Assembly: GCA_017881075.1 (NCBI GenBank)
Contig: JADGRH010000003.1
Coordinates: forward strand, 128,682 to 192,681
Direction: 5' to 3'
DNA: 64,000 bases
DNA from: Minisyncoccota bacterium
GTDB taxonomy: Bacteria; Patescibacteriota; Minisyncoccia; Phycocordibacterales; CAJBRS01
Shown here: positions 2-20,540 of the stretch, piece after piece
Layout of the letters: each line of letters begins with the position of its first letter
Position numbering within the stretch: position 1 is the stretch's first letter
The notes under the pieces: model-generated
What the model saw: the letters and a program-made list of their open reading frames with translations, nothing else
Database searches by the model: none
What the model was told of the DNA's origin: nothing
Position numbers and translations under genes: made by a program

Positions 2-2437
2 GCGGCCGAGCCAAAGAGAACAGGCATTGTTTCTCGTAGCTTCGTCACTGAAATGAAGGAGTCATATCTTGACTATGCCATGTCAGTTATTACCGCTCGT
101 GCTCTTCCTGATGTCCGCGACGGCTTAAAGCCGGTACATCGTCGTATTCTCTTTGCTATGAATGAGTTGGGACTCTCGGCTGGAGCGAAGACCAGAAAAT
201 CAGCCAAAATTACCGGAGATGTTACCGGAAATTACCATCCTCACGGCGACGTTGCTGTTTATGAATCGTTGGTCAAAATGGCCCAAGATTTTTCCATGCG
301 CTATCCGCTCATCATTGGTCAAGGCAATTTTGGGTCAATCGACGGAGACGGCGCCGCCGCTCCGCGCTATACCGAGGCAAAGATGGCTCGCATCAGTGCC
401 GAACTTTTGCGCGATCTGGAAAAAGAAACTGTGGAGTTCCGACCAAACTACGAAGGTACTCGTACGGAACCGGTGGTACTGCCGACCGCTGTTCCAAATC
501 TTCTACTCAATGGCACTCTCGGTATTGCTGTCGGTATGGCTTCAAACATTCCTCCTCATAATCTCGGCGAAGTAGTAGATGCCACTATTCATTTAATTGA
601 TAATAAAGAAGCAGGTACAGAAGATCTAGTTCAATTCATCAAGGGGCCGGATTTTCCAACAGGTGGCATTATTTACGGCGAGAAAGATATTCATCACGCT
701 TACGCCAACGGCAAAGGGGGAGTGGTAGTACGTGGTGAAGCGGAAATTGTGGAAGAAAAATCTGGGCGTTCCCAAATAATCATCACCTCCATTCCATACC
801 GCGTTAACAAAGCCGATCTTATCACTAACATTGCTGACCTGGTTCGAGACAAAAAAATTGAAGGCATAAAAGATATTCGTGACGAATCGACTAAGGATAT
901 ACGTGTAGTTATTGACCTAAAGAATGGCGCCTATCCGCAGAATGTTCTGAATTTTCTATATAAACACACCCAACTGGAAGAAACATTTCACTTTAATACC
1001 GTAGCCTTAGTGGGTGGCGTGCCGCAAACACTATCACTGAAAGCCTTTTTAGAGGAATTTATTGACCATCGCAAGATTGTTATAAAAAGAAGAACGGAAT
1101 TTGATTTGCGAAAAGCGGAAGACAGAGAGCATATTCTTCTCGGCTTAAAAAAAGCCCTGGATCATATTGATCAGATTATTAAATTAATCCGGGCGGCCAA
1201 GGATGTGCCAGAAGCCCAGGTGAAATTAATGAAGGAGTTCAGGTTCTCCGACAGGCAGGCCAACGCCATTCTGGAAATGCGCCTGTCAAAATTGGCCGGC
1301 CTGGAGAGGAAGAAAGTGGAAGAAGAGCTGAAGACCACTCAAGCTCTCATAAAGGACCTAAAGGAAATCTTAGCTAATTCTCGTCGCATTCTTACCATCA
1401 TCAAGGATGAGTTGAAAGAAATCAGAGCGAAGTATGGCGATGAAAGAAGAACAAAGATTGTTAAACACGGAGCAAAAGCTTTTTCGGTAGAGGACGTTAT
1501 TCCGGACGAGGAATCGGTGCTCGTTCTTACTGCAGGGGGTTATCTTAAGAGGACAAACCCCGATGAATATCGCCGGCAAAAACGAGGAGGAGTGGGTGTG
1601 GTTGACTTAAATACTAAGGAGGAAGATTTTATTACAAAATTTTTAACCACCAGCACTCATAGCGACCTTCTTTTCTTTACCGACAAAGGAAAAGCCTATC
1701 AGATCAAGATGTATGACATTCCGGAAGGCAAACGCGCTACTCGGGGCAAATCAATCATGAATTTTCTAGCTCTCTCCGCCGAAGAAAAAATAACTTCCAT
1801 CTTACCGATGCCAAAGGAAGTGAAGAAAAATCCATGGTCTCTGCTTATGGTGACAAAGCATGGTACTTCCAAAAAAGTAAAAGCGGAAAGTTTTCACGAT
1901 GTTCGCCGCAGCGGCCTTATTGCCATCCGTCTTGATAAGGGTGATGAATTGATCTCTGCTTCGTTCGTAGAGAAAGGTGATGAGGTGATTGTGGTCACTT
2001 CCTCTGGCCAATCAATTCGTTTTAAGGAATCGGATGTTCGGGAAATGGGACGCTCCGCCGGTGGAGTGCGGGTGATAAAAGTGGGCGGAAAGGCAGAAGT
2101 AGTGGGTGCCGACATAATCAAAAAAAGTTATGCTAATCCGGAAATCCTAGTCATTGCCAAAAACGGATATGGTAAAAAAACCAATTTAAAAGAATACAAA
2201 ACCCAGAAGCGTGGAGGAAGTGGTATTAAGACAGCTAAAGTGACAGCAAAGACTGGAGAAATAATCGCTTCTAAAGTTGTTTCTGGAGTGGAAACTGAAA
2301 TAGTAGCCATTTCTAAAAAAAGTCAGGTCATTCGTGTAGACCTTGCTGAAATTCCATCACTTGGTCGTCAGACCCAGGGAGTGAGGATTATGAAATTGCG
2401 TGATGGCGACTCAATCGCATCTCTGGTATGTCTATAA
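2..2437 (+). CDS. gyrA: DNA gyrase subunit A, 5' end truncated by window edge
   Basis: ORF 53..2437 stays open in frame back to nt 2. Motifs [25 protein letters not shown] and KYHPHGD, plus C-terminal beta-pinwheel repeats. About 20 N-terminal residues present in GyrA homologs are missing. Confidence 0.95.
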
Positions 2438-2449
2438 TTTTTCCGCTTT

Positions 2450-2980
2450 ATGTTTAACCACCCACAAAATAATATTAAAGAAGGATATATTGCAGAGGGG
2501 ATGAGGGTGGCCGACTTTGGGGCGGGCGTCGGCCACCACAGTCTGCCAGTGGCTCGACAGGTGGGCGATAGCGGTGACGTTTACGCTATTGAAATTCAGA
2601 AAGATCTTTTGACCAAACTTCACCGAGAGGCCGAGCGGGAAAGACTTTTAAATGTTCATCCTATTCTGGGTGATTTGGAAAAAGCCGGTGGCAGCAAACT
2701 GGCGGACCAATTTGTAGACAGGGTTTTAATAATAAACACTCTTTTTCAGCTGGAAGAGAAAAAGATCGCCCTTTCGGAAGCTAAGAGAATTCTCAAGTCC
2801 GATGGCAGATTGGTTCTTATAGATTGGCAGGATTCCTTTGGCCAGATTGGCCCACATCCCGATCAGGTGGTGACTAAAGAAAAAGCTCTCTCTTTGACGG
2901 AGAGCGCCGGCTTCAAATTGGAAAAAGAATTTGAAGCCGGCAGTCATCATTACGGCATGTTATTCAATATTCCTAAGTGA
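2450..2980 (+). CDS. class I SAM-dependent methyltransferase
   Basis: Motif I-like VADFGAGVG followed by acidic and hydrophobic MTase motifs; 176 aa. Confidence 0.65.
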   Translation: MFNHPQNNIKEGYIAEGMRVADFGAGVGHHSLPVARQVGDSGDVYAIEIQKDLLTKLHREAERERLLNVHPILGDLEKAGGSKLADQFVDRVLIINTLFQLEEKKIALSEAKRILKSDGRLVLIDWQDSFGQIGPHPDQVVTKEKALSLTESAGFKLEKEFEAGSHHYGMLFNIPK

Positions 2981-2994
2981 TATAATTACCTAAC

Positions 2995-4299
2995 ATGAAC
3001 ACTTTCCAAGTAATTCTCCTTTGCGTTTTTGGCGGATTCTTAGTATTGGGAGTGATGATCTTTGCCATCGGCCACTTTGGCGGTCAGACTACCACTCCGC
3101 CCATCCTGATGTGGGGCACTATTTCTAATACGGAAATGCGCAGTCTGCTGGAACAAATGGATACAATGCAAAGAGGCATTCTGAAAGTTACCTATGTTCA
3201 GAAAAATCCTGACACTTTTGATAAAGACTTTACCGAGGCAGTGGCTACGGGTGTAGGCCCGGACCTGGTTCTAGTTAGCCAAGACAATATATTAACTGAA
3301 CGAAACAAGCTCTATATTATTCCTTTTGCTACCCTTGCCGACCGCACTGTTATAGATACCTTTATTCAAGAAGCTGATCTCTTTAAAACTTCCACAGGAT
3401 ATTTAGCCCTACCTTTTATTATTGACCCGTTAGTAATGTATTGGAATCGGGATCTGTTTCAAGGAGCGGGGTTGGCTAAACCGCCGCAATACTGGGACGA
3501 ATTTAGCGGAACCGTGGCGGTTCTGAATAAGAAAGACCAAGCAGGCAACATTTTGCAAAGCGCTATTTCTTTCGGCGAATTTAGTAATGTGGCAAACGCA
3601 AAATCAATAATTTCTACCCTGATTATGCAAGCAGGTAATCCAATTACCCTAATCGGCGCGGCTGATGCCACTACTCCGGATGAAGTGACGGCAGTCTTGG
3701 ATAAAAAATTCAATGCCGTGGTGTTGCCCGCTGAAGCGGCTCTTGATTTCTATACCCAATTTGCCGATCCATCGAGCCCGGTTTTTTCCTGGAATAAATC
3801 ATTACCTCTTTCTACCAATATGTTTCTGGCTGGAAATCTTGCTACCTACTTCGGCTTTGCCAGTGAATACGCTTCACTCCAGAGTAAGAATCCCAATCTT
3901 AATTTTGATGTCGCCCCTCTACCACAGCCAAGAAGCGCCAGCGCTAAAATCACTTTCGGCAATATGCTCGGTCTCGGCATAGTGAAGAATTCGCCCAATC
4001 TTAGTGAAGCTTATCGGTCACTCCGAGTTTTGATCGGAAGTGCCCCTTTGAATATTTTATCCGGTCTGAATAATCTACCACCTACTCGGCGGGATCTTTT
4101 GGCCACGTCGACTCCCCAAAGTGCCGCCCTGACAGTCTTCAATGCTGCCGCCCTACAGTCGCGAGGATGGCTTGATCCCAATCCACAATCCACCAACACG
4201 ATATTCTCCGACATGATAGAATCTATTAAGAGTGGTAGTCGTAAAATAGGCGATGCCATTGGGGAAGCTAATGTGGAGATTCAGGGTTTAATCAAATAA
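2995..4299 (+). CDS. membrane-anchored extracellular solute-binding-like protein (hypothetical)
   Basis: N-terminal TM helix followed by a periplasmic-binding-protein-like region; no precise family match by eye. Confidence 0.35.
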   Translation: MNTFQVILLCVFGGFLVLGVMIFAIGHFGGQTTTPPILMWGTISNTEMRSLLEQMDTMQRGILKVTYVQKNPDTFDKDFTEAVATGVGPDLVLVSQDNILTERNKLYIIPFATLADRTVIDTFIQEADLFKTSTGYLALPFIIDPLVMYWNRDLFQGAGLAKPPQYWDEFSGTVAVLNKKDQAGNILQSAISFGEFSNVANAKSIISTLIMQAGNPITLIGAADATTPDEVTAVLDKKFNAVVLPAEAALDFYTQFADPSSPVFSWNKSLPLSTNMFLAGNLATYFGFASEYASLQSKNPNLNFDVAPLPQPRSASAKITFGNMLGLGIVKNSPNLSEAYRSLRVLIGSAPLNILSGLNNLPPTRRDLLATSTPQSAALTVFNAAALQSRGWLDPNPQSTNTIFSDMIESIKSGSRKIGDAIGEANVEIQGLIK

Positions 4300-4300
4300 A

Positions 4301-4684
4301 ATGAGAGCCAATTTTCTTCTTTCTTTCAGTACAATTATACTCGTCTCACTCCTTCTTTTTTCTCCCGTTTATGGTCAGAATCCGAATTACGGAATTGTGG
4401 GATGCGGAAATAATTGCGATTGGGGACAGCTAATTCAATTGGGACAGAATATTATTGGTTACCTTGTTTTAATTGCTGGAAGTTTGGCCGCCATCTCCTT
4501 CGCTTATGCCGGGTGGCTTTATCTTACTTCCGGTGGCGACCCCTCAAAAGTTACAAAAGCCAAGGATATTTTTGTGAAAGTGGCGATAGGATTGATTGTC
4601 GTCTTGTGTGCCTGGCTGATCGTTCACGAGGTGCTTAAACTATTAGGCGTAAATCAAAACTATTCATTAATAAAGACATCATAA
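4301..4684 (+). CDS. TrbC/VirB2-like pilin-family small membrane protein, paralog 1
   Basis: Signal peptide, then two hydrophobic helices joined by a short charged loop (SGGDPSKVTKAKD); 127 aa; first of a tandem paralog array. Confidence 0.5.
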   Translation: MRANFLLSFSTIILVSLLLFSPVYGQNPNYGIVGCGNNCDWGQLIQLGQNIIGYLVLIAGSLAAISFAYAGWLYLTSGGDPSKVTKAKDIFVKVAIGLIVVLCAWLIVHEVLKLLGVNQNYSLIKTS

Positions 4685-4686
4685 AC

Positions 4687-5106
4687 ATGAATCGGAAAAT
4701 AATAATTATACTGATTATCTTTAATCTTTTTTTTATTACACCGGGTTTGGTTGTTGGCCAAGTAATACAAAGTAGTGGAATTGGAGGGCCTAGTCAATCT
4801 AGTGGAATTGGAGGAACTAGCCAATTATGTAATCCTCTGGGAGGGTGCAGTTCCAGTGGCCCCAACGATCTTACGGCATTCATTAAATTAGTATTGGCAG
4901 CAGTGGTGAAGATCGGGGCGGTAGTGGTGGTTTTCTTTGTTATCTATTCCGGCTTCCTTATGGTTACGGCCCAAGGCAATGAGGAGAAATTAAAGAAAGC
5001 CAAAAACGCCCTTCTTTGGACTTTAGTGGGAGCGGCCATTCTTCTGGGAGCCCAACTTCTAGCGGACGTTATTAGCAACACTATAACTGCCTTAAGTAAA
5101 CCTTAA
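4687..5106 (+). CDS. TrbC/VirB2-like pilin-family small membrane protein, paralog 2
   Basis: Signal peptide, Gly/Ser-rich linker, two hydrophobic helices with an AQGNEEKLKKAKN loop. Confidence 0.5.
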   Translation: MNRKIIIILIIFNLFFITPGLVVGQVIQSSGIGGPSQSSGIGGTSQLCNPLGGCSSSGPNDLTAFIKLVLAAVVKIGAVVVVFFVIYSGFLMVTAQGNEEKLKKAKNALLWTLVGAAILLGAQLLADVISNTITALSKP

Positions 5107-5116
5107 GCAAATAATT

Positions 5117-5419
5117 ATGTTTTTAATTCCACAATTAGTCTACGCCCAAGCCACCGATTTTAAAGGTTTGATTAAAATTGCTCTAGACTTATTGAAGAGC
5201 GTCATCCCAGTTATTATTGGGATAGGTCTGGTAGTCTTTCTTTTTGGTATCGTGCGCTACATTACGCCTGGGCAAAGCGAAGAAAAAATCAAAGAAGGGA
5301 GAAATATGATGATCTATGGTCTTATTGCCCTCTTTGTAATGACAGCCGTCTGGGGATTGGTGGGGGTCTTAACCAGTACTTTCTTTGGAGGGGCATTGAG
5401 CATTCCGCAGCTGCAATGA
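5117..5419 (+). CDS. TrbC/VirB2-like pilin-family small membrane protein, paralog 3
   Basis: IGIGLVVFLFGIVRYIT...GRNMMIYGLIALFVMTAVWGLV architecture shared with paralogs 4-6. Confidence 0.5.
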   Translation: MFLIPQLVYAQATDFKGLIKIALDLLKSVIPVIIGIGLVVFLFGIVRYITPGQSEEKIKEGRNMMIYGLIALFVMTAVWGLVGVLTSTFFGGALSIPQLQ

Positions 5420-5514
5420 AGTGAGAAGCCAAACTGCTATTTGACAGACTAAGACTTGGGCAAGCGCCCCGGAGCGGTCTGTCAAATGGCACGTTTGGCG
5501 AAGCACTTCATTGC
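5412..5514. repeat. palindromic repeat element family 1, copy A (between pilin paralogs 3 and 4)
   Basis: Core TAAGACTTGGGCAAGCGCCCCGGAGCG with inner arms TTTGACAGAC / GTCTGTCAAA and an imperfect outer 38-bp inverted repeat beginning GCAATGAAGTG and ending CACTTCATTGC; the 5' arm overlaps the stop codon of ORF 5117..5419. Confidence 0.8.
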
Positions 5515-5632
5515 CTGGACACAGAAGGAAATAATCCCCAGGTAAGACTTTAAAATTATTGAGATTGTGGTATGATTTAGAGGTAAATAGCTTATAAAAA
5601 GGTCATCGCTTATTAATTAAATTATCCTTTAA

Positions 5633-5995
5633 ATGAAAAAGTATCTCATTGGTTTATCAGTACTGGCCATGCCAGCAATAGCCTTCGGTCAGAATCTTCA
5701 GAATCTTAGCAATTTAGTCGGTTCCGCTACCCGTATTATCAATCAGTTAGTACCTTTTGCCATTGGCTTGGGTTTAATCGCATTCCTTTTTGGAATCGTC
5801 CGATACATCACCGCGGGCGCTGGGGAAGACAAGGCCGCCGCCAGAAACCTGATGATCTACGGCATCATCGCTCTCTTTGTGATGGTATCTGTCTGGGGAT
5901 TGGTCAATTTCATCGGCCAGGCTCTAGGTATCAATAATCCTGACACTCAACGAGCTCCAAATGTTCCTACCAATCAATCGTCAACTGGACTTTAA
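5633..5995 (+). CDS. TrbC/VirB2-like pilin-family small membrane protein, paralog 4
   Basis: Signal peptide; FAIGLGLIAFLFGIVRYITAGAGEDKAAARNLMIYGIIALFVMVSVWGLVNFIG; preceded by an extended -10 promoter TGgTATGAT at 5568-5576. Confidence 0.55.
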   Translation: MKKYLIGLSVLAMPAIAFGQNLQNLSNLVGSATRIINQLVPFAIGLGLIAFLFGIVRYITAGAGEDKAAARNLMIYGIIALFVMVSVWGLVNFIGQALGINNPDTQRAPNVPTNQSSTGL

Positions 5996-6014
5996 GATAA
6001 TCCATAAGCGGATT

Positions 6015-6398
6015 GTGAAAAAATACATAATTACTTCTTTGGTGTTACTACTGATATCGGTAATTTTACCTTTATTGGCCCATGCTCAATCTGGAGGAGG
6101 GGGTGGGGGAGGCTCGCCCTCTTTAGTGAAGCTGGTTCAATCTGGCACTAAAGTTTTAGACGCTCTCATTCCTTTCGCCATCGGACTTGGATTAGTGGTC
6201 TTTCTTTTTGCCATCATTAAATATGTGACGGCCGGTAGCGGCGAAGACAAGGCCGCCGCCAGAAACCTGATGATCTACGGCATCATCGCTCTCTTTGTGA
6301 TGGTATCTGTCTGGGGTCTAGTGAATTTTATTGGCGGTGCTTTGGGAATAGATCAGAACGCGAAGGTCTTGGCGCCGAGCTTACCCGAACTTCCATAA
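6015..6398 (+). CDS. TrbC/VirB2-like pilin-family small membrane protein, paralog 5 (probable GTG start)
   Basis: ORF track gives 5961..6398, but that overlaps paralog 4. In-frame GTG at 6015 gives a clean signal peptide, KKYIITSLVLLLISVILPLLAHA. A poly-Gly linker follows, then the same two-helix core as paralog 4. Confidence 0.5.
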   Translation: MKKYIITSLVLLLISVILPLLAHAQSGGGGGGGSPSLVKLVQSGTKVLDALIPFAIGLGLVVFLFAIIKYVTAGSGEDKAAARNLMIYGIIALFVMVSVWGLVNFIGGALGIDQNAKVLAPSLPELP

Positions 6399-6404
6399 TA
6401 ATAT

Positions 6405-6677
6405 ATGAATGTTGATGGCCTTCTGAAAAATATTGATAATCTCATCCTTAACCCTTTAATCTTTCTGATGTTCGGCGTAGCTCTGGTGGTTTTCTTGTGG
6501 GGTGTGGTGCAATTTATTATCGCCGCCGATAGCGCCGAAGGCAGAAAACTCGGCCGCCAAAGAATTCTCTATGGCATCATTGGTATGTTCATCATGGTCT
6601 CGGTCTATGGTATTCTCTACATCATTATCCATACCTTCGGTATCAGCTCCACTGCTCTTGATTCGGTGAAGAAATAG
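6405..6677 (+). CDS. TrbC/VirB2-like pilin-family small membrane protein, paralog 6
   Basis: Two hydrophobic helices with an ADSAEGRKLGRQR loop; no obvious signal peptide; 90 aa. Confidence 0.45.
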   Translation: MNVDGLLKNIDNLILNPLIFLMFGVALVVFLWGVVQFIIAADSAEGRKLGRQRILYGIIGMFIMVSVYGILYIIIHTFGISSTALDSVKK

Positions 6678-6703: not shown

Positions 6704-6735
6704 GCGGCGATCTTCGTTTTCACGAAGATCGCCGC
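6704..6735. terminator. bidirectional rho-independent terminator between convergent genes
   Basis: Perfect 13-bp stem GCGGCGATCTTCG / CGAAGATCGCCGC around loop TTTTCA, with A/T runs on both sides. Confidence 0.75.
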
Positions 6736-6750: not shown

Positions 6751-7224
6751 TTAGCGCAACTTTTGGACGACGTAGCCAGTCACGGAACTAGCTTCGCGTG
6801 ACTTGAATCGGAGTGTGTAGACCACTCCCAGTTTTGGATGATAGCCGTGACCAATGGTCACAATTCGTTCATCCGACCGGGTTTCATTCACCAACTCATC
6901 TTGGAGTGGGTCGTCGTTTCCACGATAGCTTGCGAAAGTGTCGAATTTCCACTCGTCACCCAATATCACGACCGGATCACTCCATGCTCCGGTCGGAGCA
7001 ATGTAGTTGTCGATGTGTACTGGAATGTTAGAGGTCGCCGTGGCGACTACTCGACTGGATCGACTACGGTTTTCAGGTCTCTCTCTCATTATGCCGTAGA
7101 TTAACAATCCGACGGCTAGGAGAATTGCAACCCAATAGATCATACCTCCCGCAAAACTCACTATTCCTCCAAGCACTTCACCGTAGTTTACCGGAGTTGT
7201 TCCTTCATTTGTTTCAGTTGGCAT
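6751..7224 (-). CDS. small membrane protein with soluble C-terminal domain (possible NfeD-like partner of the SPFH protein)
   Basis: N-terminal TM helix then an approximately 110-aa C-terminal domain; 10 nt downstream of the SPFH-like gene on the same strand. Confidence 0.3.
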   Translation of the reverse strand: MPTETNEGTTPVNYGEVLGGIVSFAGGMIYWVAILLAVGLLIYGIMRERPENRSRSSRVVATATSNIPVHIDNYIAPTGAWSDPVVILGDEWKFDTFASYRGNDDPLQDELVNETRSDERIVTIGHGYHPKLGVVYTLRFKSREASSVTGYVVQKLR

Positions 7225-7233
7225 AATACTCCT

Positions 7234-8247
7234 TTACTTGGTTGGGGTTTTGGGTTCGTTGAGGTTTTTTCCACTTTCCAGCACTGAAGCAAGGCCTGTG
7301 CCCGGCAAAATGATGTTTTGTGCACCCTCGAGCCCCTTGACGGTGCCCTCAAACACAATCTTATTCTCAGTGAATGTGAGTTGAGCAGCATCTTCCAATC
7401 CCAGGAAGATCTTAACGGCTTCTCGGGCGGTGAGCTGATCGGGAAGTAGGGTGCCGGCTGCATCCGTAACTGACGTGATATCTCGAACATACTCCATCAT
7501 CACTGATTTCGTAAATCGCTGGCCACGCGCTTTTTGTGCCTGAGCATCGAGTTCAATGTTCGAGACTTTTACTATCGGTACATAAACACCGAATTTCGAC
7601 AACAATGGTCCGGCAATTGCCGGGTCAACGAAAAGCCTCGATAATTTATCGTTAATGCCCTTCTTATCGGTGGCGGCATCATCGGCCTTGGTATTTGCGA
7701 TGATCTCGCTAAGCTCAGCCGTGATAATTTGGCTGATCATGGTTCTGGCTGTACCCTTTCTTAGGCGGCCATAAGTGATTATGTCGTCATCGGTGTCGCC
7801 CACTTGATAGGGAGCAGACCACTTTACTTTTATCGCCGGGCCGTCTTTTGACAAGTAAGTCTCGGTCTCTTCCGCTGCGCTCATGACGTTACCGGACGTG
7901 ACGGTTTTCACTTCCAAGCTCACCTCTTTTTCGAAACTTAGCGCAGGAGATTTTAGGTGAAGCCCTGCTCTAAATACCCGCGGCTTTCTTGTTTTATAGA
8001 TCTCATCCAGCATTATCCATGCGTGGTAGAGAGGGACTCTCGCAGTCGTGTAACCAGCTTTGAGTATCGGTCCAGCTAATTTGAGCACGATACCGAAAAG
8101 CCCGATCACAAAAACACTCGTGACCACGATACCTGACCAGTTGGTGTATAGCAACAGGAAGCAGGCTGCTCCCAATATTACTAATTGCCAAGCTAGACGC
8201 TTGACGAGCCTTGGAAATGAATCCATTAGAGAATCTGACATTGTCAT
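7234..8247 (-). CDS. SPFH/band-7-like membrane protein
   Basis: N-terminal TM segments, then a domain with the helix TARTMISQIITAELSEII and the strand LSKFGVYVPIVKVSNIELD, resembling the end of an SPFH domain; 337 aa. Confidence 0.4.
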   Translation of the reverse strand: MTMSDSLMDSFPRLVKRLAWQLVILGAACFLLLYTNWSGIVVTSVFVIGLFGIVLKLAGPILKAGYTTARVPLYHAWIMLDEIYKTRKPRVFRAGLHLKSPALSFEKEVSLEVKTVTSGNVMSAAEETETYLSKDGPAIKVKWSAPYQVGDTDDDIITYGRLRKGTARTMISQIITAELSEIIANTKADDAATDKKGINDKLSRLFVDPAIAGPLLSKFGVYVPIVKVSNIELDAQAQKARGQRFTKSVMMEYVRDITSVTDAAGTLLPDQLTAREAVKIFLGLEDAAQLTFTENKIVFEGTVKGLEGAQNIILPGTGLASVLESGKNLNEPKTPTK

Positions 8248-9915: not shown

Positions 9916-9921
9916 GTGTCT

Positions 9922-10022
9922 TTGAAGTATTTGGAGTCAGCACGAGCATTTTGGAGACTAAGACTTGGGCAAGCGCCCCGGAGCGGTCTCCAAAATGCTC
10001 GTGCTGGCGGAGAATACTTCTA
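9922..10022. repeat. palindromic repeat element family 1, copy B (intergenic infB-rbfA)
   Basis: Core TAAGACTTGGGCAAGCGCCCCGGAGCG flanked by a perfect 20-bp inverted repeat AGCACGAGCATTTTGGAGAC / GTCTCCAAAATGCTCGTGCT, plus further imperfect outer arms. Confidence 0.8.
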
Positions 10023-11516
10023 TTACCTCCTTACTACCGTGTAAGCTTCTAATTTATCACCCGGCGCGCATTCAATCTTAGACTCTATCATTGCTCCGAA
10101 TTCGCTGTCAGTACCGATCTCTTTTACTTTCGCCTTCATCTGTTGAAGTTCTTTTACTTTACCTTGGCCGATTAGCACATCACGGCGCATAATTTTGACA
10201 TCGTCGCCCACGCTGATTATTCCTTCCTCCACCCTTGCTCCCAACACCTGCTTATCTTTTACCTGGCTGAAAAGTTTCAGAACTTTTGCTACCCCCTTTT
10301 TCTCCTCCACCTCTGTCTTTGGAGTCTTTTCAATCACAGCTTTTGCCAACCACTCATTTAATTTGTAAATGATATCAAATGTTTGAATAGTGACACTCAT
10401 TCGCTCGGCTAGATTTTTAGTGGCGGGACTGACGTTAGCATTAAAACCGATGAGAAGAGTTTGCGGCTTACCACTTGCAATCTTTACGTCTTCGTCGGTA
10501 ATATCACCGATGGCGCTGTATAGAATCCTTAAGCCCACCTTTTCCGTCTCCATTTTTTTTAATTCGTATTCGATCGCTTCAATGATACCGGCGTTATCAG
10601 CTTTGATGATGATCGGAATGATAAATCTCTCCGGAGAATCTGCCTCCGCTTTTTCACTGGCCACTTTGCGTCTTGGTGTTTCGATAAAGGCTTCGGCCTC
10701 TTTTCTGGAGTAAAAAGAATGGAAGTAAGTTCCTGCCGCCGGCACGCTGTCAAAACCAATCACTCGAATGGGAGAAGAGAAAGTAGCCGATTCAATCTTC
10801 TTGCCCAAAAAATTTTCCATAAATCTGATCGGAGCGACACTTTCTCCGGCCACCACGAACATTCCCATTTTCAGAGTACCGCTCTTAATAATCATAGTAG
10901 CGGAAATACCACTTTCCTTGCTTCTGGCTACCTCAATGATGATGCCTTCGGCTGGCAGATCGGGATCCGCTTTCAACTCCGCAATATCCGAAATGAGGCC
11001 CAGCATATCTAAAAGTTCCGGTACGCCCTCTCCGGTTTTAGCCGAAATAGCCACTACGGGTGTATCTCCGCCATAGCCCTCAACATAAATCTCATTTTCC
11101 AAGAGAGAATTTTTAGTTCTCTCAATGTCGGCATTTTCTTTATCAATTTTATTTATAGCAACGACAAAAGGCAGTCCGAGCTCCTTGATTTGTTGATAGG
11201 CTTCAGTCGTCTGCGGTTTCACTCCATCTTCGGCGGATACTACTAAGATGGCAATATCTGCGACACCGGCACCACGACCACGAAGGAGGCCGAAAGCTTC
11301 GTGTCCGGGAGTATCAAGAAAGGTGATTTTTTTCTGATTATGGACGACTTCATAAGCGGAGATATTTTGAGTGATTCCTCCAATCTCTTTATCTACCAGA
11401 TTGGTTTTTCGGATGTAGTCGAGAAGAGTCGATTTTCCATGGTCAATGTGCCCCATTACTACAATGATGGGCGGTCGATCAAGAAGTTGTGATGGTTTAA
11501 TACCGGTTATAGTCAT
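10023..11516 (-). CDS. infB: translation initiation factor IF-2 (short form)
   Basis: G-domain [17 protein letters not shown] and NKID motifs, then IF2 domain II and C-terminal domains; 497 aa. Confidence 0.95.
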
Positions 11517-11544
11517 TAGCTTATTTATACATTATATTGTTAGA

Positions 11545-12810
11545 GTGAACAAGAAAAACAGCCACCAAAGAATTTATCTTGATTATGCCTCCATCACTCC
11601 GCTTGACAGTCGGGTGTTGAAAGTGATGAAGCCTCTTCTCGATTCCAATTTCGCCAATCCATCTTCTTTATATGCAGAAGGTGTCGAATCCAAAAAGATA
11701 ATGGAAAATGCCAGAAAGAGAGTGGCTAAAATTCTCTCGGCCCACGCCGATGAAATCATATTTACTTCAGGAGGTACTGAAGCCAACAATCTAGCACTCC
11801 TCGGACTTTTTCAATCAGCCAAAACAATTATAAAAAAACCACAGATCATTATCACCAACATTGAACATCCGTCCATTATGGAAGTTTGCAGCGAGATCAA
11901 AAGACGGGGAGGGAAAGTGAAAGTGGTGAGAGTGGAAGCAAACGGAATTGTTGATCCAAAAAAAATTAAAAAAGCCATTACAAATCGCACAATTCTAGTG
12001 TCGGTGATGTATGCGAATAATGAGGTTGGCACTATTCAGCCGATTCGAGAGATTGCGAAAGTTATCAGACAGTTTAGGAAAACCGACGGGCGAAACCAAC
12101 AACTTTTTGAGAGACTAAGACTTGGGCAAACGCCCCGGAGTGGTCTCTCAAAAAGTTCGTCCGCGAGCCCCTCTACTTTTCCGTATCTTCATACTGACGC
12201 CAGTCAAGCCGCTAATTATCTTGACCTCAATGTAGAGCGTCTCGGTGTTGATCTTATGACCATTGATGGAACGAAAATTTATGGGCCGAGAGGCGCCGGC
12301 TTTTTGGTCTGCCGGCGCCGGACGCCGCTCTGGCCGATCATTTTCGGCGGTGGCCAGGAAAGTGGGCGGCGGGCGGGCACCGAAAACCCGCCCGCCGCCC
12401 TAGGTCTCGCCACCGCCTTGGAAATCAGTCAGAGCGAGAAAAAAAGGGAGGCGGCCCGACTCTGCCGCCTCCGAGATTATTTTATTTCCGAAATCAGAAA
12501 ACATTTTCCAAAAGCAATCTTAAACGGCGATGCCAAAGAACGTCTTCCCAACAACGTTAACTTTTGCTTTCCCGATCTGGACGCGGAGTTTGCCGTGCTT
12601 CAATTGGATGCCAAAGGCATCGCCATCTCCTCGGTTACTAGCTGTCAGAATCTTAATACAGATTCGTCTTCTTATGTGGTCCAAGCCATTCAGACAAAAA
12701 ATTGTCAGAAAAGCTCATTACGTTTTAGTTTTGGTCGAAAAACCACTAAAAAAAATCTTGATTTTTGCTTAGAAGTTCTCTATAGTATAATTAATGGAAG
12801 AGCTCACTAA
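11545..12810 (+). CDS. cysteine desulfurase (class V aminotransferase, IscS/NifS-like) carrying an in-frame repeat-element insertion
   Basis: IYLDYASITPLD, GGTEANN and the PLP-lysine region FPYLHTDASQA. The ORF-track start at 11446 overlaps infB; the in-frame GTG at 11545 gives a conventional N-terminus. An approximately 33-aa insertion at nt 12085-12170 is encoded by repeat element 1. Confidence 0.85.
   Translation: MNKKNSHQRIYLDYASITPLDSRVLKVMKPLLDSNFANPSSLYAEGVESKKIMENARKRVAKILSAHADEIIFTSGGTEANNLALLGLFQSAKTIIKKPQIIITNIEHPSIMEVCSEIKRRGGKVKVVRVEANGIVDPKKIKKAITNRTILVSVMYANNEVGTIQPIREIAKVIRQFRKTDGRNQQLFERLRLGQTPRSGLSKSSSASPSTFPYLHTDASQAANYLDLNVERLGVDLMTIDGTKIYGPRGAGFLVCRRRTPLWPIIFGGGQESGRRAGTENPPAALGLATALEISQSEKKREAARLCRLRDYFISEIRKHFPKAILNGDAKERLPNNVNFCFPDLDAEFAVLQLDAKGIAISSVTSCQNLNTDSSSYVVQAIQTKNCQKSSLRFSFGRKTTKKNLDFCLEVLYSIINGRAH
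12101..12156. repeat. palindromic repeat element family 1, copy C (inside cysteine desulfurase ORF, in frame)
   Basis: AACTTTTTGAGAGAC-TAAGACTTGGGCAAACGCCCCGGAGTG-GTCTCTCAAAAAGTT with 13-bp perfect arms; translated in frame as QLFERLRLGQTPRSGLSKS. Confidence 0.8.
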
Positions 12811-17844: not shown

Positions 17845-18597
17845 ATGAAAAATTTTTTCACGTTCGTTACATTTACAGTTTTCAGCGTCTTGGTTACAAC
17901 TAGTAACGCGAAAGACCCCACGTCAGCAGAACTAATGGCGATCTTGCATCATCGCGCTCTCGCGCCAAAGAAAGTGGTGGGCTCTTACTCGGTCGTGACT
18001 CGTCAGTCGCAATCGACGGTTGGTAACACTTCGAACGAACCGCGTCTGGTTTATGTTCGACACAGTCAATACAAACACGACGTTAAAAAACCGGAGATCT
18101 TCCGCGGCAAAAGAGATTGGGCCTCGGCCCATGGCTTATCTTCAACCCCAGGCCTTGAACTTCAGGAAGCCACCAATAAACAAGCTGGCGCCTGTGCTGT
18201 ATCGGTCGGGAACAAAGGAGACAAGTGGATCTCTCTATCAAGCAACAAGGTTCTCGTCAATTACGATACCATTGGCACCACGGACGCTGCCACTCGCAAC
18301 AGTATCCGCATTCCCTACAAGGTAAAGGTAAGAGGACGATGGCAAACCAAGTATCGCACAGTTAGTCTCCACAAGACCCCAGAGCAGCTCCGTGCCCCAG
18401 TGGTGGACGAGGCTAAGAACAGAAAACAATCCGGTCCTGACTACGAATGGTTCCTATACGTTCCATGGAATGGTCCACGTCCGTTCCTTGCTCTGACCAA
18501 AGAGGAAAGAAGGAAGGCGCTGAAAGCGGCTGTCACCATAGGTCGGCTAGCTCAAGCCACCTTCTTCCAAAAGAATCGGATGATGGCAAAACGTTAA
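17845..18597 (+). CDS. secreted hypothetical protein
   Basis: Signal peptide; 250 aa; elevated GC relative to neighbours; terminator hairpin at approximately 18608-18645. Confidence 0.5.
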   Translation: MKNFFTFVTFTVFSVLVTTSNAKDPTSAELMAILHHRALAPKKVVGSYSVVTRQSQSTVGNTSNEPRLVYVRHSQYKHDVKKPEIFRGKRDWASAHGLSSTPGLELQEATNKQAGACAVSVGNKGDKWISLSSNKVLVNYDTIGTTDAATRNSIRIPYKVKVRGRWQTKYRTVSLHKTPEQLRAPVVDEAKNRKQSGPDYEWFLYVPWNGPRPFLALTKEERRKALKAAVTIGRLAQATFFQKNRMMAKR

Positions 18598-18712: not shown

Positions 18713-19381
18713 ATGAAGAAAATCCTAGTGAACCTTGTCATCTGTGCCCTGTGCGTTTTAGGCCCCACCGACCTCTACGCCAAGGCTAAAAAGAAGCATT
18801 CCCCCAAACATCATCACCGACATTCTGAAACAACAGCCAACCATTCAAAACGGTCGAGGCCGCCAAAAGCCAAGAATCCGGCCAAGAAAAAGAACGATGA
18901 TTCCCAAAGGCTTTTAGCCATTAAGAAAACTAAACCTCCGCACACCCCTCCACCTCCACCTCTGGCAAAAAGAGACCCGCGAGTGGATCCAAGTATGGAA
19001 ATGGCGGCGCGAATTGGAAAAGCCAGAGCGGCACACTCCAAAAGTAAGTGTTGGAGATGGGTCAAATTTGATTTGCGAGCTTCCGGAGCTGTCAATTCGT
19101 ATCCTGACACCGGTAACGCGAAGCAAGCCGGCATTGAATTGGTTAAACACTATGGCTTTAAGGTACTTGATTGGGTGCTGAAACCGGCACTTGCTCCTAT
19201 CGGAGCTGTCCTCGTCTACGAGCAGAAAAACCGTCCAGGGCATGTAGAGATTCGGACACGAGACGGATTTGTGAGTGACTTCTGGTCCCGTTGGCCAATA
19301 ACCGACACTCATCCGGAACGCAACTACAAATTCCTCTATGCCGTGGCCCGATTGGTGCCCCGTCCTTGGAATCATAAGTGA
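18713..19381 (+). CDS. secreted CHAP-domain (Cys/His amidase/peptidase) protein with Lys/Pro/His-rich N-terminal region
   Basis: Signal peptide; candidate nucleophile Cys in SKCWRWVKFDL and a His in APIGAVLVYEQKNRPGHVEI, giving CHAP-like order and spacing; terminator hairpin after the stop. Confidence 0.5.
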   Translation: MKKILVNLVICALCVLGPTDLYAKAKKKHSPKHHHRHSETTANHSKRSRPPKAKNPAKKKNDDSQRLLAIKKTKPPHTPPPPPLAKRDPRVDPSMEMAARIGKARAAHSKSKCWRWVKFDLRASGAVNSYPDTGNAKQAGIELVKHYGFKVLDWVLKPALAPIGAVLVYEQKNRPGHVEIRTRDGFVSDFWSRWPITDTHPERNYKFLYAVARLVPRPWNHK

Positions 19382-19490: not shown

Positions 19491-20540
19491 ATGAATCAAT
19501 CCATTATTAATATTGTTCAGAAAATTTTGTCGGACGCCTATGAATCAAAGGCGTCCGACATCCATCTAGATCCAACCAGAAATTTACTTCGGGTCCGATT
19601 TAGAGTTGACGGACTTCTCCAAGACAGAACATTTTTTCCAAAAGATCTGTCGCCGCCGATAATTTCTCGCCTAAAAGTCTTGGCCGGTCTTCGCATGGAT
19701 GAGCACCAAAGTGACCAGGATGGACGACTTCATTTCCAAATAAAGGATGAGCGAGTGGATATTCGTATTTCCATAGTCCCAACTTATTATGGAGAGAATG
19801 CTGTCTTGCGTCTGTTACATCGTCATCATGGCACTTTGTCTTTATCTAATCTTGGATTCAACAACAAGAGCATTGAAATGATCACGGAAGCTCTTCGAAA
19901 AACATCCGGAATGATCTTAATAACTGGCCCGACTGGCTCGGGCAAAACAACTACCCTTTATACTTTATTGGAGATGCTCAAAAAAGAGGAAGGCTCGATT
20001 GTTACCATTGAAGATCCGATTGAATATGCAATTGATGGAATTGAACAGATTCAGGTAAATCAGAGAAGTTCTCTGAACTTTGCTAATGGTTTACGAGCCA
20101 TTCTTCGACAGGACCCGGACATTATTATGGTGGGCGAGATTCGTGATAGGGAAACAGCCGCCATTGCTGTTAACAGTGCTCTAACTGGCCACCTACTTCT
20201 ATCCACCCTTCACACCAATGACGCCGTCTCTGCCATTCTCAGGCTCTACGACATGGGTATTGAGCCGTATCTCATCGCCTCAACACTCTCAATAATTATT
20301 GGACAAAGATTGGTCAGAAAAATTGGCCCCGATGACAGTTTCAGTGGGCGACTGGTCATAAACGAGATATTAATTGTAGAAGAGAATCTAAGAGAGGCCA
20401 TTATCAAAAAATCCTCTCGCGCCGAAATGGAAATCTTAGCGCGTCAAAATGGCTTAATCGGAATGCGCGAAGATGGATACGAAAAAGCATCCGCCGGCCT
20501 CACCTCATCTGCCGAGGTCTTGAGAGTGACGAATCTTTAG
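19491..20540 (+). CDS. GspE/PilB-family secretion ATPase (core domain only)
   Basis: Walker A GPTGSGKTT, Asp box, Walker B DPDIIMVGEIRD, His box TLHTND; 349 aa; lacks the N1 domain and zinc motif. Confidence 0.8.
   Translation: MNQSIINIVQKILSDAYESKASDIHLDPTRNLLRVRFRVDGLLQDRTFFPKDLSPPIISRLKVLAGLRMDEHQSDQDGRLHFQIKDERVDIRISIVPTYYGENAVLRLLHRHHGTLSLSNLGFNNKSIEMITEALRKTSGMILITGPTGSGKTTTLYTLLEMLKKEEGSIVTIEDPIEYAIDGIEQIQVNQRSSLNFANGLRAILRQDPDIIMVGEIRDRETAAIAVNSALTGHLLLSTLHTNDAVSAILRLYDMGIEPYLIASTLSIIIGQRLVRKIGPDDSFSGRLVINEILIVEENLREAIIKKSSRAEMEILARQNGLIGMREDGYEKASAGLTSSAEVLRVTNL

What the first reader, a model, noticed from the sequence alone, without database searches (positions are those of the whole stretch)
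4301..6677. Tandem array of six small TrbC/VirB2-like pilin paralogs with a recent gene-conversion tract
Six consecutive same-strand genes encode 90-145-aa proteins with the same architecture. Each has a signal peptide (five of six), then hydrophobic helix, short charged loop, hydrophobic helix. This is the VirB2/TrbC T4SS-pilin fold pattern. Paralogs 4 and 5 share an identical nucleotide tract of about 75 nt, GAAGACAAGGCCGCCGCCAGAAACCTGATGATCTACGGCATCATCGCTCTCTTTGTGATGGTATCTGTCTGGGG, at 5822-5896 and 6243-6317. Their N-terminal halves have diverged, implying ongoing gene conversion or very recent duplication. Paralog 5 has a poly-Gly (G7) linker. No VirB4, VirD4 or VirB6 genes are adjacent. 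Copy A of repeat element 1 sits between paralogs 3 and 4, with an extended -10 promoter downstream of it. The array could act as an antigenic or adhesive variation cassette on the surface of a likely epibiotic cell.
Basis: partly seen in the sequence, partly recalled or inferred. Interest (0 to 1): 0.55.

Follow-up and report, generated by a model that had tools for sequence, protein, structure and literature searches.

The report
Conserved six-gene VirB2-like pilin operon
Six neighbouring small membrane-protein genes in this ultra-small (Patescibacteria) bacterium belong to a known secretion-system pilin family; they are an old, fixed operon shared by dozens of related species, not a fast-changing variation cassette.

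Summary
Six same-strand ORFs at 4301-6677 all score above Pfam's threshold for PF18895 (T4SS_pilin). Paralogs 4 and 5 share an exact 74-nt tract (5825-5898 and 6243-6316). No VirB4, VirB6 or VirD4 gene lies in the 64-kb window.

Tandem VirB2-like pilin arrays are already described in Patescibacteria: 441 arrays of 2-11 genes, plus an essential six-pilin array in Southlakia epibionticum. This is a new member of a known kind.

What comparison adds:
- The block gyrA, methyltransferase, membrane-anchored MalE-like solute-binding protein (SBP), then 4-7 pilins recurs across about 80 Paceibacteria species genomes. The SBP sits directly upstream in 63 of 64 informative loci. Six pilins is the commonest number.
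- Paralogs 1, 2 and 6 are ancient positional subfamilies. Paralogs 3-5 evolve in concert.
- Orthologue comparisons point to purifying selection wherever dN/dS could be computed.
- The identical tract is a gene-conversion event specific to this lineage. It covers the conserved second helix, not the variable exposed tails.

The pilin-family and gene-conversion readings are supported. The antigenic-variation reading is not. The likeliest role is a set of subunits for the Patescibacterial T4SS-like apparatus encoded elsewhere; that step is inferred. The tight SBP coupling is unexplained. The hairpin element between paralogs 3 and 4 is a separate oddity.

The parts
53..2437 (+). gyrA, the first gene of the conserved syntenic block
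   Evidence: Pfam DNA_topoisoIV and DNA_gyraseA_C, E = 1e-158. A GyrA homologue lies upstream of the array in 54 of 55 related loci with at least 5 kb of upstream sequence.
2450..2980 (+). Small class-I methyltransferase (176 aa), present in the block in many relatives
   Evidence: Pfam Methyltransf_31/11/25. Present in 35 of 55 related loci.
2995..4299 (+). Membrane-anchored MalE-like (family 1) solute-binding protein. Its stop codon ends 1 nt before the start codon of pilin 1.
   Evidence: Pfam SBP_bac_8 and SBP_bac_1. AlphaFold2 pLDDT 92.9, with an N-terminal helix at 3-25 and a two-lobe SBP fold. Foldseek top hits are the mannooligosaccharide SBP 4r9g (E = 9e-22) and MalE. A homologue sits directly upstream of the first pilin in 63 of 64 related loci, with a median gap of about 2 nt and many 4-nt overlaps. 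Two loci reached from the SBP side show the same layout.
4301..4684 (+). Pilin paralog 1 (127 aa): signal peptide, a Cys-x4-Cys motif, two hydrophobic helices, a YSL-type C-terminus
   Evidence: PF18895, 42.3 bits. Hydropathy. Subfamily 1 is monophyletic in six genomes, 192 of 200 bootstraps.
4687..5106 (+). Pilin paralog 2 (139 aa): signal peptide, a Gly/Ser-rich repeat region (27-nt tandem repeat at 4768-4821), two helices
   Evidence: PF18895, 32.6 bits. Repeat D4. Subfamily 2 is monophyletic, 200 of 200.
5117..5419 (+). Pilin paralog 3 (100 aa), with only a vestigial leader
   Evidence: PF18895, 35.0 bits. Orthologues likewise have short or no leaders.
5413..5514 (+). Hairpin repeat element, copy A. 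It is inserted at the very end of pilin 3, and its left arm supplies the last two codons and the stop.
   Evidence: Inverted repeats I1 and I3. RNA minimum free energy -65.8 kcal/mol, z = -10. Absent from the orthologous spacers of L001 and L002. Two more copies lie in the window, and 46 stretches in metagenome contigs carry the exact 33-nt core pattern.
5534..5576 (+). Conserved promoter-like module ahead of pilin 4: ATCCCCA box, then TTTAAA-16-TATGAT with an upstream TG
   Evidence: Consensus scan. The box and both hexamers keep the same spacing in the orthologous spacers of L001 and L002 even though synonymous sites are saturated. Function is inferred.
5633..5995 (+). Pilin paralog 4 (120 aa)
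   Evidence: PF18895, 37.8 bits. AlphaFold2 model. Clear orthologues at 67% and 66% amino-acid identity in L001 and L002.
6015..6398 (+). Pilin paralog 5 (127 aa from GTG 6015; the longest ORF starts at ATG 5961), with a G7 run after the signal peptide
   Evidence: PF18895, 34.0 bits. The choice of start is argued from the orthologous MKK leaders. It groups with the paralog-4 clade in 179 of 200 bootstraps, as expected after partial conversion.
5825..5898 (+). Gene-conversion tract, copy in paralog 4 (encodes EDKAAARNLMIYGIIALFVMVSVWG: the end of the loop plus helix 2)
   Evidence: Exact 74-nt identity with 6243-6316. 1 of 25 same-amino-acid codons differ in the tract against 18 of 27 in the flanks. 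p = 1.7e-6.
6243..6316 (+). Gene-conversion tract, copy in paralog 5
   Evidence: As above. In L001 and L002 the same tract of paralogs 4 and 5 differs at 19 and 22 of 75 nt.
6405..6677 (+). Pilin paralog 6 (90 aa), leaderless, the last gene of the array
   Evidence: PF18895, 28.4 bits. A leaderless last gene of 78-91 aa occurs in all six genomes compared, and this subfamily is monophyletic in 199 of 200 bootstraps.
6704..6735 (.). GC-rich 14-bp hairpin between the convergent operon ends, a likely bidirectional terminator
   Evidence: Terminator-like hit. Function is inferred.

Best explanation
The region is a conserved chromosomal operon of a Paceibacteria (Patescibacteria/CPR) genome. It encodes six paralogous small membrane proteins of the T4SS_pilin family PF18895.

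Shown here:
- Each protein is a two-helix hairpin joined by a short charged loop that contains several Lys/Arg residues. In paralogs 1, 2, 4 and 5 a Sec-type leader precedes it.
- The six are old, non-redundant paralogs held in a fixed order downstream of gyrA, a methyltransferase and a membrane-anchored MalE-like solute-binding protein.
- Subfamilies 1, 2 and 6 are orthologous by position across distant genomes. Subfamilies 3-5 are homogenised within genomes by gene conversion.
- The exact 74-nt tract shared by paralogs 4 and 5 is the latest such event. It is specific to this lineage and covers the conserved second helix.

Inferred:
- The proteins insert into the membrane and serve as pilin-type subunits of the Patescibacterial T4SS-like machine (VirB4, VirB6, VirB3 and VirB8 homologues), which is encoded elsewhere in the genome.
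- They build a heteromeric pilus or conduit used at the host interface, as proposed for the essential six-pilin array of Southlakia epibionticum.
- A conserved promoter-like module ahead of paralog 4 suggests two transcription units: SBP with pilins 1-3, and pilins 4-6.
For: - Family: all six exceed the PF18895 gathering score. 290 homologues of paralog 4 were found with E <= 0.001; of the 120 listed, all but three carry PF18895, and NCBI names several 'pilin'.
- Fold: the AlphaFold2 helical hairpin has pLDDT 81.5, and hydropathy agrees.
- Weak links to classical pilins: the family profile's best PDB hit is the pKM101 N-pilus subunit TraM (8cw4, E = 0.0045). Orthologues of paralogs 1 and 2 carry weak precomputed PF04956 TrbC hits.
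- Synteny: the block recurs in 63 of 64 (SBP) and 54 of 55 (GyrA) informative loci. Complete arrays have 6 genes in 31 loci, 5 in 22, 7 in 8, 4 in 3 and 10 in 1. Two loci reached from the SBP side agree.
- Orthology and concerted evolution: scores and tree.
- Selection: where dS could be estimated, dN/dS is 0.03-0.34; synonymous sites are otherwise saturated.
- Conversion.
- Literature: VirB2-like arrays of 2-11 genes in 383 Patescibacteria assemblies (PMC12102498). Six VirB2-like pilins lie within the essential T4SS locus of S. epibionticum ML1 (PMC10633639 and PMC12857230). The genome of syntenic locus L004 (GCA_001825315.1) is listed with VirB4 present (PMC12102498 Table S1).
Against: - No T4SS gene (VirB4, VirB6, VirD4, VirB3, VirB8) lies in the 64-kb window.
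- None is on record within 8-10 kb of the array in the loci with precomputed Pfam tables.
- None was seen among the ten longest of the 29 unassigned ORFs of at least 450 aa in the 79 related loci, the ones that were scanned.
- Whether this genome has a T4SS at all was not testable here.
- Profile-profile comparison with bona fide MPF-T VirB2/TrbC proteins gives only 10.5% probability.
- Foldseek finds only generic helical hairpins.
- None of the six window proteins hits PF04956 at E <= 1.
- In the literature read here, Patescibacterial pili are described only as a possibility, not as observed structures. The pilin name rests on family annotation and on Tn-seq essentiality in one Saccharibacterium.
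- The invariant coupling to an SBP is not explained by a T4SS-pilus model.
Confidence: 0.6

Rival explanations
1. SBP-coupled membrane apparatus. The six two-helix proteins work with the co-translated, membrane-anchored sugar-type binding protein rather than, or in addition to, a T4SS. Possibilities include a scaffold that presents the binding protein at the cell surface, or an uptake conduit for host-derived oligosaccharides. The archaeal bindosome, where binding proteins depend on small pilin-like proteins, would be an analogue (from memory, not tested).
For: - The SBP is directly upstream of pilin 1 in 63 of 64 loci. Stop-to-start gaps centre on -4 to +6 nt, and two SBP-side look-ups agree.
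- The SBP family is uniform in length, 427-435 aa for most hits. Its N-terminal helix is conserved: F4 is invariant and F12 and F23 are nearly so. That is more than a plain anchor needs.
- No ABC permease or ATPase gene is on record next to the SBP in the annotated loci.
- No T4SS genes lie nearby either.
Against: - gyrA and a methyltransferase are conserved in the same block, and they are surely unrelated in function. Conserved order in these streamlined genomes is therefore weak evidence of a shared role.
- According to the literature, PF18895 and VirB2-like genes lie next to virB4 in more than half of Patescibacteria assemblies that have them, and they are essential within a T4SS cluster in Southlakia.
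- There is no direct evidence of an SBP-pilin contact.
Confidence: 0.2
2. One reading: an antigenic or adhesive variation cassette. Paralogs are swapped or recombined to vary a surface-exposed filament, as proposed for virB2 paralog arrays of Bartonella and Anaplasma.
For: - The parts predicted to be exposed vary most and are of low complexity: a G7 run in paralog 5, SSGIGG repeats in paralog 2, and divergent C-terminal tails.
- Gene conversion between paralogs does occur.
- The literature floats host-range versatility for such arrays (PMC12102498).
Against: - Copy number, order and subfamily identity are conserved over about 80 species and in the tree.
- Where dN/dS could be computed it points to purifying selection.
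- All copies are complete and co-oriented in an operon, with no promoterless donor cassettes.
- The conversion tract homogenises the conserved helix 2 rather than shuffling the variable tails.
Confidence: 0.1
3. An unrelated family of small membrane proteins (holin-, bacteriocin- or immunity-like) that merely shares a two-helix layout.
For: A helical hairpin is a very common shape, and Foldseek returns only generic hairpins.
Against: - All six pass the curated PF18895 threshold, and no holin or bacteriocin family appears even at E <= 1.
- The only NCBIfam hits are to a pilin-like conjugal transfer family.
- There is no lysis or phage context: the neighbours are housekeeping genes.
Confidence: 0.03

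Closest known systems
Six-gene VirB2-like pilin array of the essential T4SS locus (SEML1_0006-0019) of Southlakia epibionticum ML1 (Saccharimonadia) (PMC10633639, PMC12857230)
   Same: Both have six tandem, sequence-divergent, structurally similar predicted pilins in a Patescibacterium, and both are chromosomal rather than on a conjugative element.
   Different: In Southlakia the array lies inside the T4SS gene cluster. Here no T4SS gene lies within 64 kb, and the array follows gyrA, a methyltransferase and an SBP. One-to-one correspondence between the two sets of six was not tested.
VirB2 arrays of Patescibacteria (441 arrays of 2-11 genes in 383 assemblies; PF04956 and PF18895 profiles) (PMC12102498)
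   Same: Same family profile, tandem arrangement and low pairwise identity between most members.
   Different: That survey reports arrays as most abundant in Microgenomatia and Saccharimonadia, and a maximum within-array identity of 54%. Here paralogs 4 and 5 are 62% identical because of conversion. The array belongs to a block conserved across Paceibacteria; a term search of that paper's main text found no mention of gyrA or of solute- or substrate-binding proteins.
Classical conjugative or T-pilus pilins VirB2, TrbC, TraA and TraM (PF04956; solved filaments such as pKM101 TraM, 8cw4)
   Same: Shared layout: a leader peptide ending in small residues followed by Gln, then two hydrophobic helices and a short loop carrying basic residues. 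The family profile's best PDB hit is TraM, at a weak E = 0.0045.
   Different: Sequence homology is not demonstrable: hhalign gives 10.5% probability and the window proteins have no PF04956 hit. There is no adjacent T4SS. The host is reported as monoderm (PMC12857230). Nothing indicates cyclisation or a bound lipid.
Mycoplasma ICE Mbov_0395 family pilin-like conjugal transfer protein (NCBIfam NF045849)
   Same: It is the only NCBIfam family hit by all six proteins, over nearly the whole 80-residue model.
   Different: Scores are 18-29 bits against a cut-off of 40, so the six are not members. There is no ICE context.
virB2 paralog arrays of Bartonella and Anaplasma phagocytophilum (cited in PMC12102498)
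   Same: Tandem pilin paralogs in a host-dependent bacterium.
   Different: Those arrays are thought to serve antigenic variation. Here the array is conserved and shows signs of purifying selection.
Sulfolobus bindosome assembly system (Bas): sugar-binding proteins that depend on small pilin-like proteins (recalled from memory)
   Same: A sugar-type binding protein is genetically coupled to several small pilin-like membrane proteins.
   Different: The Bas pilin-like proteins are of the type IV pilin class and come with their own ATPase and membrane protein. Here the small proteins are T4SS-type two-helix proteins with no adjacent ATPase. This is an analogy only.

Membership tests
Pfam PF18895 T4SS_pilin | Whole-protein HMM score at or above the curated gathering score (26.6 bits) | tested here: met
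   Scores are 42.3, 32.6, 35.0, 37.8, 34.0 and 28.4 bits for paralogs 1-6.
Pfam PF18895 T4SS_pilin | Small protein with two hydrophobic helices joined by a short polar loop | tested here: met
   Hydropathy segments and loop composition for all six. AlphaFold2 hairpin for paralog 4, pLDDT 81.5.
Patescibacterial VirB2-like pilin array (as defined in PMC12102498) | Two or more pilin-profile genes in tandem, or separated by one non-pilin gene, in a Patescibacteria genome | tested here: met
   Six consecutive PF18895 genes. The nearest relatives are Paceibacteria genomes assembled from metagenomes.
Classical VirB2/TrbC pilins (PF04956) | Detectable sequence homology to PF04956 or to bona fide VirB2 | tested here: inconclusive
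   No PF04956 hit at E <= 1 for the six window proteins. Some orthologues of paralogs 1 and 2 carry weak precomputed PF04956 hits. Family profile against PDB: TraM, E = 0.0045. hhalign against an alignment of annotated VirB2/TrbC proteins: probability 10.5%.
Classical VirB2/TrbC pilins (PF04956) | Structural match to solved T4SS pilin subunits | tested here: inconclusive
T4SS pilin in the functional sense | Encoded with, or at least in the same genome as, the T4SS core (VirB4 ATPase, VirB6 and so on) | tested here: not met
   Adjacency is not met. There are none in the 64-kb window, none on record within 8-10 kb in relatives with Pfam tables, and none among the ten large unassigned ORFs scanned from 79 loci. 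Presence elsewhere in this genome could not be tested. A genome carrying the same block is listed as VirB4-positive.
T4SS pilin in the functional sense | Polymerises into an extracellular filament | not testable with these tools
   This needs microscopy or proteomics. The reviews read here describe Patescibacterial pili only as a possibility.
Antigenic-variation pilin cassette | Variable copy number or content between close relatives, silent donor copies, diversifying selection | tested here: not met
   Array size and positional subfamilies are conserved. dN/dS is 0.03-0.34 where it could be computed. All copies are intact and co-oriented.
ABC-transporter solute-binding protein, family 1 (the upstream gene) | Two-lobe periplasmic-binding-protein fold of the MalE type | tested here: met
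   Pfam SBP_bac_8 and SBP_bac_1. PDB profile hit 4r9f, E = 3e-18. AlphaFold2 pLDDT 92.9 and Foldseek E = 9e-22.
ABC-transporter solute-binding protein, family 1 (the upstream gene) | Encoded with cognate permease and ATPase genes | tested here: not met
   No ABC permease or ATPase appears next to it in the window among the ORFs scanned, nor in seven relatives with Pfam tables.

The most novel reading that the evidence does not exclude
The invariant, translationally coupled pairing of a membrane-anchored sugar-type binding protein with a fixed set of about six T4SS-type two-helix 'pilins' defines a Paceibacteria-wide surface apparatus. It is kept apart from any T4SS gene cluster. In this apparatus the pilin-like proteins would form a conduit or scaffold through the cell envelope, and the binding protein would capture host-derived glycans. 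That would be a nutrient-scavenging organelle rather than a secretion or conjugation pilus.
Probability: 0.15. Interest if true: 0.75.

Novelty: new member of a known kind. Interest (0 to 1): 0.38.

Why it matters
Patescibacteria make up a large share of bacterial diversity and live off host cells. The T4SS-like machine and its pilin array are among the few components shown to be essential for that lifestyle, in one Saccharibacterium.

This work shows that Paceibacteria keep a fixed set of five to six paralogs, in fixed order and apparently under purifying selection. They are always behind the same sugar-binding protein and away from any T4SS genes. That changes how the multiplicity should be read: as a heteromeric, specialised assembly rather than interchangeable variants. 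It also gives concrete targets for structure prediction, metaproteomics and genetics: six subfamilies, the SBP and an internal promoter.

Tried and rejected
- Homology to true VirB2. I recovered annotated VirB2/TrbC genes from plasmids, aligned them and ran hhalign against the family alignment. The probability was 10.5%, with only the leader cleavage region aligned.
- T4SS genes near the array. All window ORFs of at least 600 aa and most smaller ones were scanned. The only secretion-type ATPase is a GspE/PilB-type type IV pilus ATPase at 19491-20540, not VirB11 or VirB4. Of the 29 unassigned ORFs of at least 450 aa in 79 related loci, the ten scanned are housekeeping or unknown.
- Locating the window's own contig to look further out. 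The exact protein is not in the gene-position index, and the genome is not a GTDB species representative. The rest of the 198-kb contig could not be read.
- Recent duplication as the source of the identical tract. Rejected because both paralogs have separate orthologues in L001 and L002.
- The hairpin as a known RNA family. Rfam has no match; the only hit is noise against a microRNA model.
- The hairpin as an intrinsic terminator. No T-run follows it.
- The one locus without an SBP (L017). It was checked for T4SS genes. Instead it has a giant surface protein upstream and the usual small protein plus SPFH pair downstream.

Full report
**What is in the sequence**

Six ORFs lie on the + strand between 4301 and 6677.
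- They encode proteins of 127, 139, 100, 120, 145 and 90 aa.
- Paralog 5 probably starts at GTG 6015 (127 aa) rather than ATG 5961. The shorter form begins MKKYII..., like paralog 4 and the orthologues, and does not overlap gene 4.
- All six score above Pfam's curated threshold for PF18895, T4SS_pilin: 28.4-42.3 bits against 26.6.
- The only NCBIfam model they touch is the Mycoplasma ICE 'pilin-like conjugal transfer protein' NF045849, and all scores are below its cut-off.
- Hydropathy shows two hydrophobic segments in every protein, joined by a 5-16 residue loop rich in K, R, D and E. Paralogs 1, 2, 4 and 5 also have an N-terminal hydrophobic leader.
- Those leaders end VYG|Q, VVG|Q, AFG|Q and AHA|Q. 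Paralog 3 has only about 11 leader-like residues, and paralog 6 has none.
- An AlphaFold2 model of paralog 4, built on 82 homologues, has pLDDT 81.5. It shows a leader helix, helix 22-60, loop 61-64, helix 65-97 and a disordered tail.

**The identical tract is gene conversion**

- Paralogs 4 and 5 share an exact 74-nt run at 5825-5898 and 6243-6316. The run encodes the end of the loop and the second helix.
- In the same reading register, the rest of the aligned core is only 58% identical. The chance of such a run is about 4e-16.
- Within the tract, 1 of 25 codons whose amino acid is the same in both copies differs between the two genes. In the flanks the figure is 18 of 27 (Fisher p = 1.7e-6).
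- Both paralogs have separate orthologues in two related genomes, L001 and L002. There, paralogs 4 and 5 differ over the same tract at 19 and 22 of 75 nt, and at 12 of 22 and 12 of 21 same-amino-acid codons.
- The duplication is therefore old, and the identity is a recent conversion specific to this lineage.
- In a tree of 35 paralogs from six genomes, window paralog 5 joins the paralog-4 clade in 179 of 200 bootstraps, instead of joining its positional orthologues. That fits partial overwriting by paralog 4, though the direction is not proven.

**Genomic setting**

- The array is chromosomal and sits among housekeeping genes.
- Upstream are gyrA (53-2437), a small methyltransferase and a solute-binding protein (SBP, 2995-4299).
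- Downstream, on the other strand, are a 157-aa membrane protein and an SPFH protein. Four tRNAs, infB, a cysteine desulfurase and clpB follow.
- No VirB4, VirB6 or VirD4 occurs anywhere in the 64 kb.
- The only secretion-type ATPase, at 19491-20540, is of the GspE/PilB type IV pilus kind.
- The closest relatives of the proteins are from Candidatus Paceibacteria, Parcubacteria and Zambryskibacteria genomes assembled from metagenomes. NCBI names several of them 'pilin'.

**The array is an old, fixed operon**

- Look-ups of homologues returned the same layout in five independent genomes: gyrA, usually the methyltransferase, the SBP, then five or six PF18895 genes.
- A scan of one genome per GTDB species with the family's most conserved peptide found 322 relatives. 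I analysed the best 79 loci.
- An SBP homologue lies directly upstream of the first pilin in 63 of 64 loci with at least 1.5 kb of upstream sequence. The median gap is about 2 nt, and many pairs have 4-nt or 1-nt overlaps.
- GyrA is present in 54 of 55 loci with at least 5 kb of upstream sequence.
- Of 65 complete arrays, 31 have 6 genes, 22 have 5, 8 have 7, 3 have 4 and 1 has 10.
- Starting from the SBP instead gave the same picture in two more loci.
- The single exception, L017, has a giant surface protein upstream but keeps the downstream small protein plus SPFH pair.
- Position in the array predicts subfamily:
  - The first gene has a Cys pair after the leader (192 of 200 bootstraps for monophyly).
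  - The second has an NPL motif and a Gly/Ser-rich stretch (200 of 200).
  - The last is a leaderless protein of 78-91 aa (199 of 200).
- The middle genes (3-5) cluster by position among close genomes but by genome among distant ones. That is the pattern expected from recurrent conversion.
- Between the window, L001 and L002, synonymous sites are saturated (pS 0.66-1.03) while pN is 0.10-0.40. Where dN/dS could be computed it is 0.03-0.34; this covers 9 of 18 pairs and none for paralog 5.
- These facts do not fit a cassette that varies in number or content.
- What does vary is the predicted exposed ends: a G7 run in paralog 5, a 27-nt tandem repeat encoding SSGIGG in paralog 2, and different C-terminal tails.

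**The neighbour**

- The SBP has more than 2,000 homologues. The listed ones are of nearly constant length, mostly 427-435 aa.
- Its N-terminal helix is conserved.
- The model is confident (pLDDT 92.9) and of the MalE type. The best structural matches are a mannooligosaccharide-binding protein and maltose-binding proteins.
- No ABC permease or ATPase gene lies beside it in the window or in the annotated relatives.
- I cannot say whether the coupling to the pilins is functional or just frozen gene order. gyrA is frozen in the same block. The overlapping stop and start codons argue for co-translation.

**Internal signals**

- The spacer before paralog 4 aligns between the window, L001 and L002. 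It has an invariant ATCCCCA box and a TTTAwA-16/17-TAnnAT pair at fixed spacing.
- The window version has the TG of an extended -10.
- Conservation against a saturated background suggests a real internal promoter. That is inference.
- A GC-rich hairpin at 6704-6735 closes the operon.

**The hairpin between paralogs 3 and 4**

- The 102-nt hairpin at 5413-5514 (-65.8 kcal/mol, z = -10) is absent from the orthologous spacers. It is an insertion.
- Its left arm supplies the last two codons and the stop codon of paralog 3.

**Comparison with what is known**

- Tandem VirB2-like pilin arrays are already reported in Patescibacteria. A 2025 survey using the PF04956 and PF18895 profiles found 441 arrays of 2-11 genes in 383 assemblies, with about 25% mean and 54% maximum identity (PMC12102498).
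- The T4SS locus of Southlakia epibionticum ML1 contains six divergent VirB2-like pilins that are essential for epibiotic growth (PMC10633639 and PMC12857230).
- That survey lists the genome of locus L004, which carries the same block, as VirB4-positive. It places the Paceibacteria T4SS near dnaA.
- The present array is thus a further member of a described kind. It differs in three ways:
  - It is separate from any T4SS genes.
  - It is embedded in a class-wide gyrA-SBP block. A term search of that paper's main text found no mention of gyrA or of solute- or substrate-binding proteins.
  - One pair is 62% identical because of conversion.
- Direct homology to classical VirB2/TrbC is only marginal. 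The best PDB hit of the family profile is the pKM101 pilus subunit TraM at E = 0.0045, and some orthologues carry weak TrbC hits. hhalign against annotated VirB2/TrbC proteins gives 10.5%, and Foldseek is uninformative for so simple a fold.

**Verdict**

- The family assignment and the gene-conversion idea are right. The variation-cassette idea is not supported.
- Most likely these are six specialised subunits of a T4SS-type pilus or conduit whose motor is encoded elsewhere. That step is inferred from the family and from one experimental system.
- The main alternative is a role tied to the sugar-binding protein that always precedes them.

Noticed in passing
window 5413-5514, 9924-10020, about 12085-12165; metagenome loci L093-L138: A dispersed hairpin element. 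It has an invariant, asymmetric 33-nt apex, GACTAAGACTTGGGCAA[AG]CGCCCCGGAG[CT]GGTC. The stems are unique to each copy yet nearly perfectly self-complementary. In 43 distinct copies the median is 28 and the maximum 48 paired positions, and the arms share no sequence between copies. Several metagenome contigs carry 4-5 copies on both strands. It is not in Rfam. I do not know what mechanism would give unique perfect arms around a fixed loop.
   Followed up: partly
window 11446-12810 (element at about 12085-12165): One hairpin copy lies inside the cysteine desulfurase gene. It forms an in-frame 25-aa insertion (QQLFERLRLGQTPRSGLSKSSSASP) that the orthologue in L001 lacks. This recalls the Rickettsia palindromic elements that insert in-frame into genes (recalled from memory). 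The ORF's annotated start also overlaps infB by about 70 nt, so the true start is probably later.
   Followed up: partly
window 9916-10022; L001 11666-11684: The rbfA-infB spacer is 107 nt in the window, almost all of it the hairpin element. It is 19 nt in the related genome. The whole hairpin, both arms included, is therefore the inserted unit.
   Followed up: partly
window 6751-7224 (-) and 7234-8247 (-): A 157-aa protein with an N-terminal membrane helix and an SPFH/Band_7 protein converge on the pilin operon. The same pair recurs downstream of the array in distant relatives, including L017, the one locus that lacks the SBP. It looks like an NfeD-SPFH-type pair (from memory).
   Followed up: partly
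window 19491-20540 (+), with unassigned ORFs at 17845-18597 and 18713-19381: A 349-aa GspE/PilB-type ATPase core. It has no N-terminal domain and scores below every NCBIfam equivalog cut-off. Two ORFs with no family match precede it. This may be part of a reduced type IV pilus or competence system. dprA lies at 26345-27211.
   Followed up: no
locus L019 (JAHFLU010000058.1), 899-4968: One related genome has ten consecutive PF18895-like genes behind the SBP, instead of the usual five to seven.
   Followed up: no
window 53428-53498: A 31-nt inverted repeat, 90% complementary, with a 9-nt loop, lies inside the 3' part of uvrC.
   Followed up: no
locus L003 (Logan SRR5581483), 5813-6256: In this second assembly of the L002 organism no gene was called at the paralog-5 position, although my HMM search finds a pilin ORF there. 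This is probably a gene-calling or start-codon issue, since paralog 5 of L002 starts with GTG.
   Followed up: no
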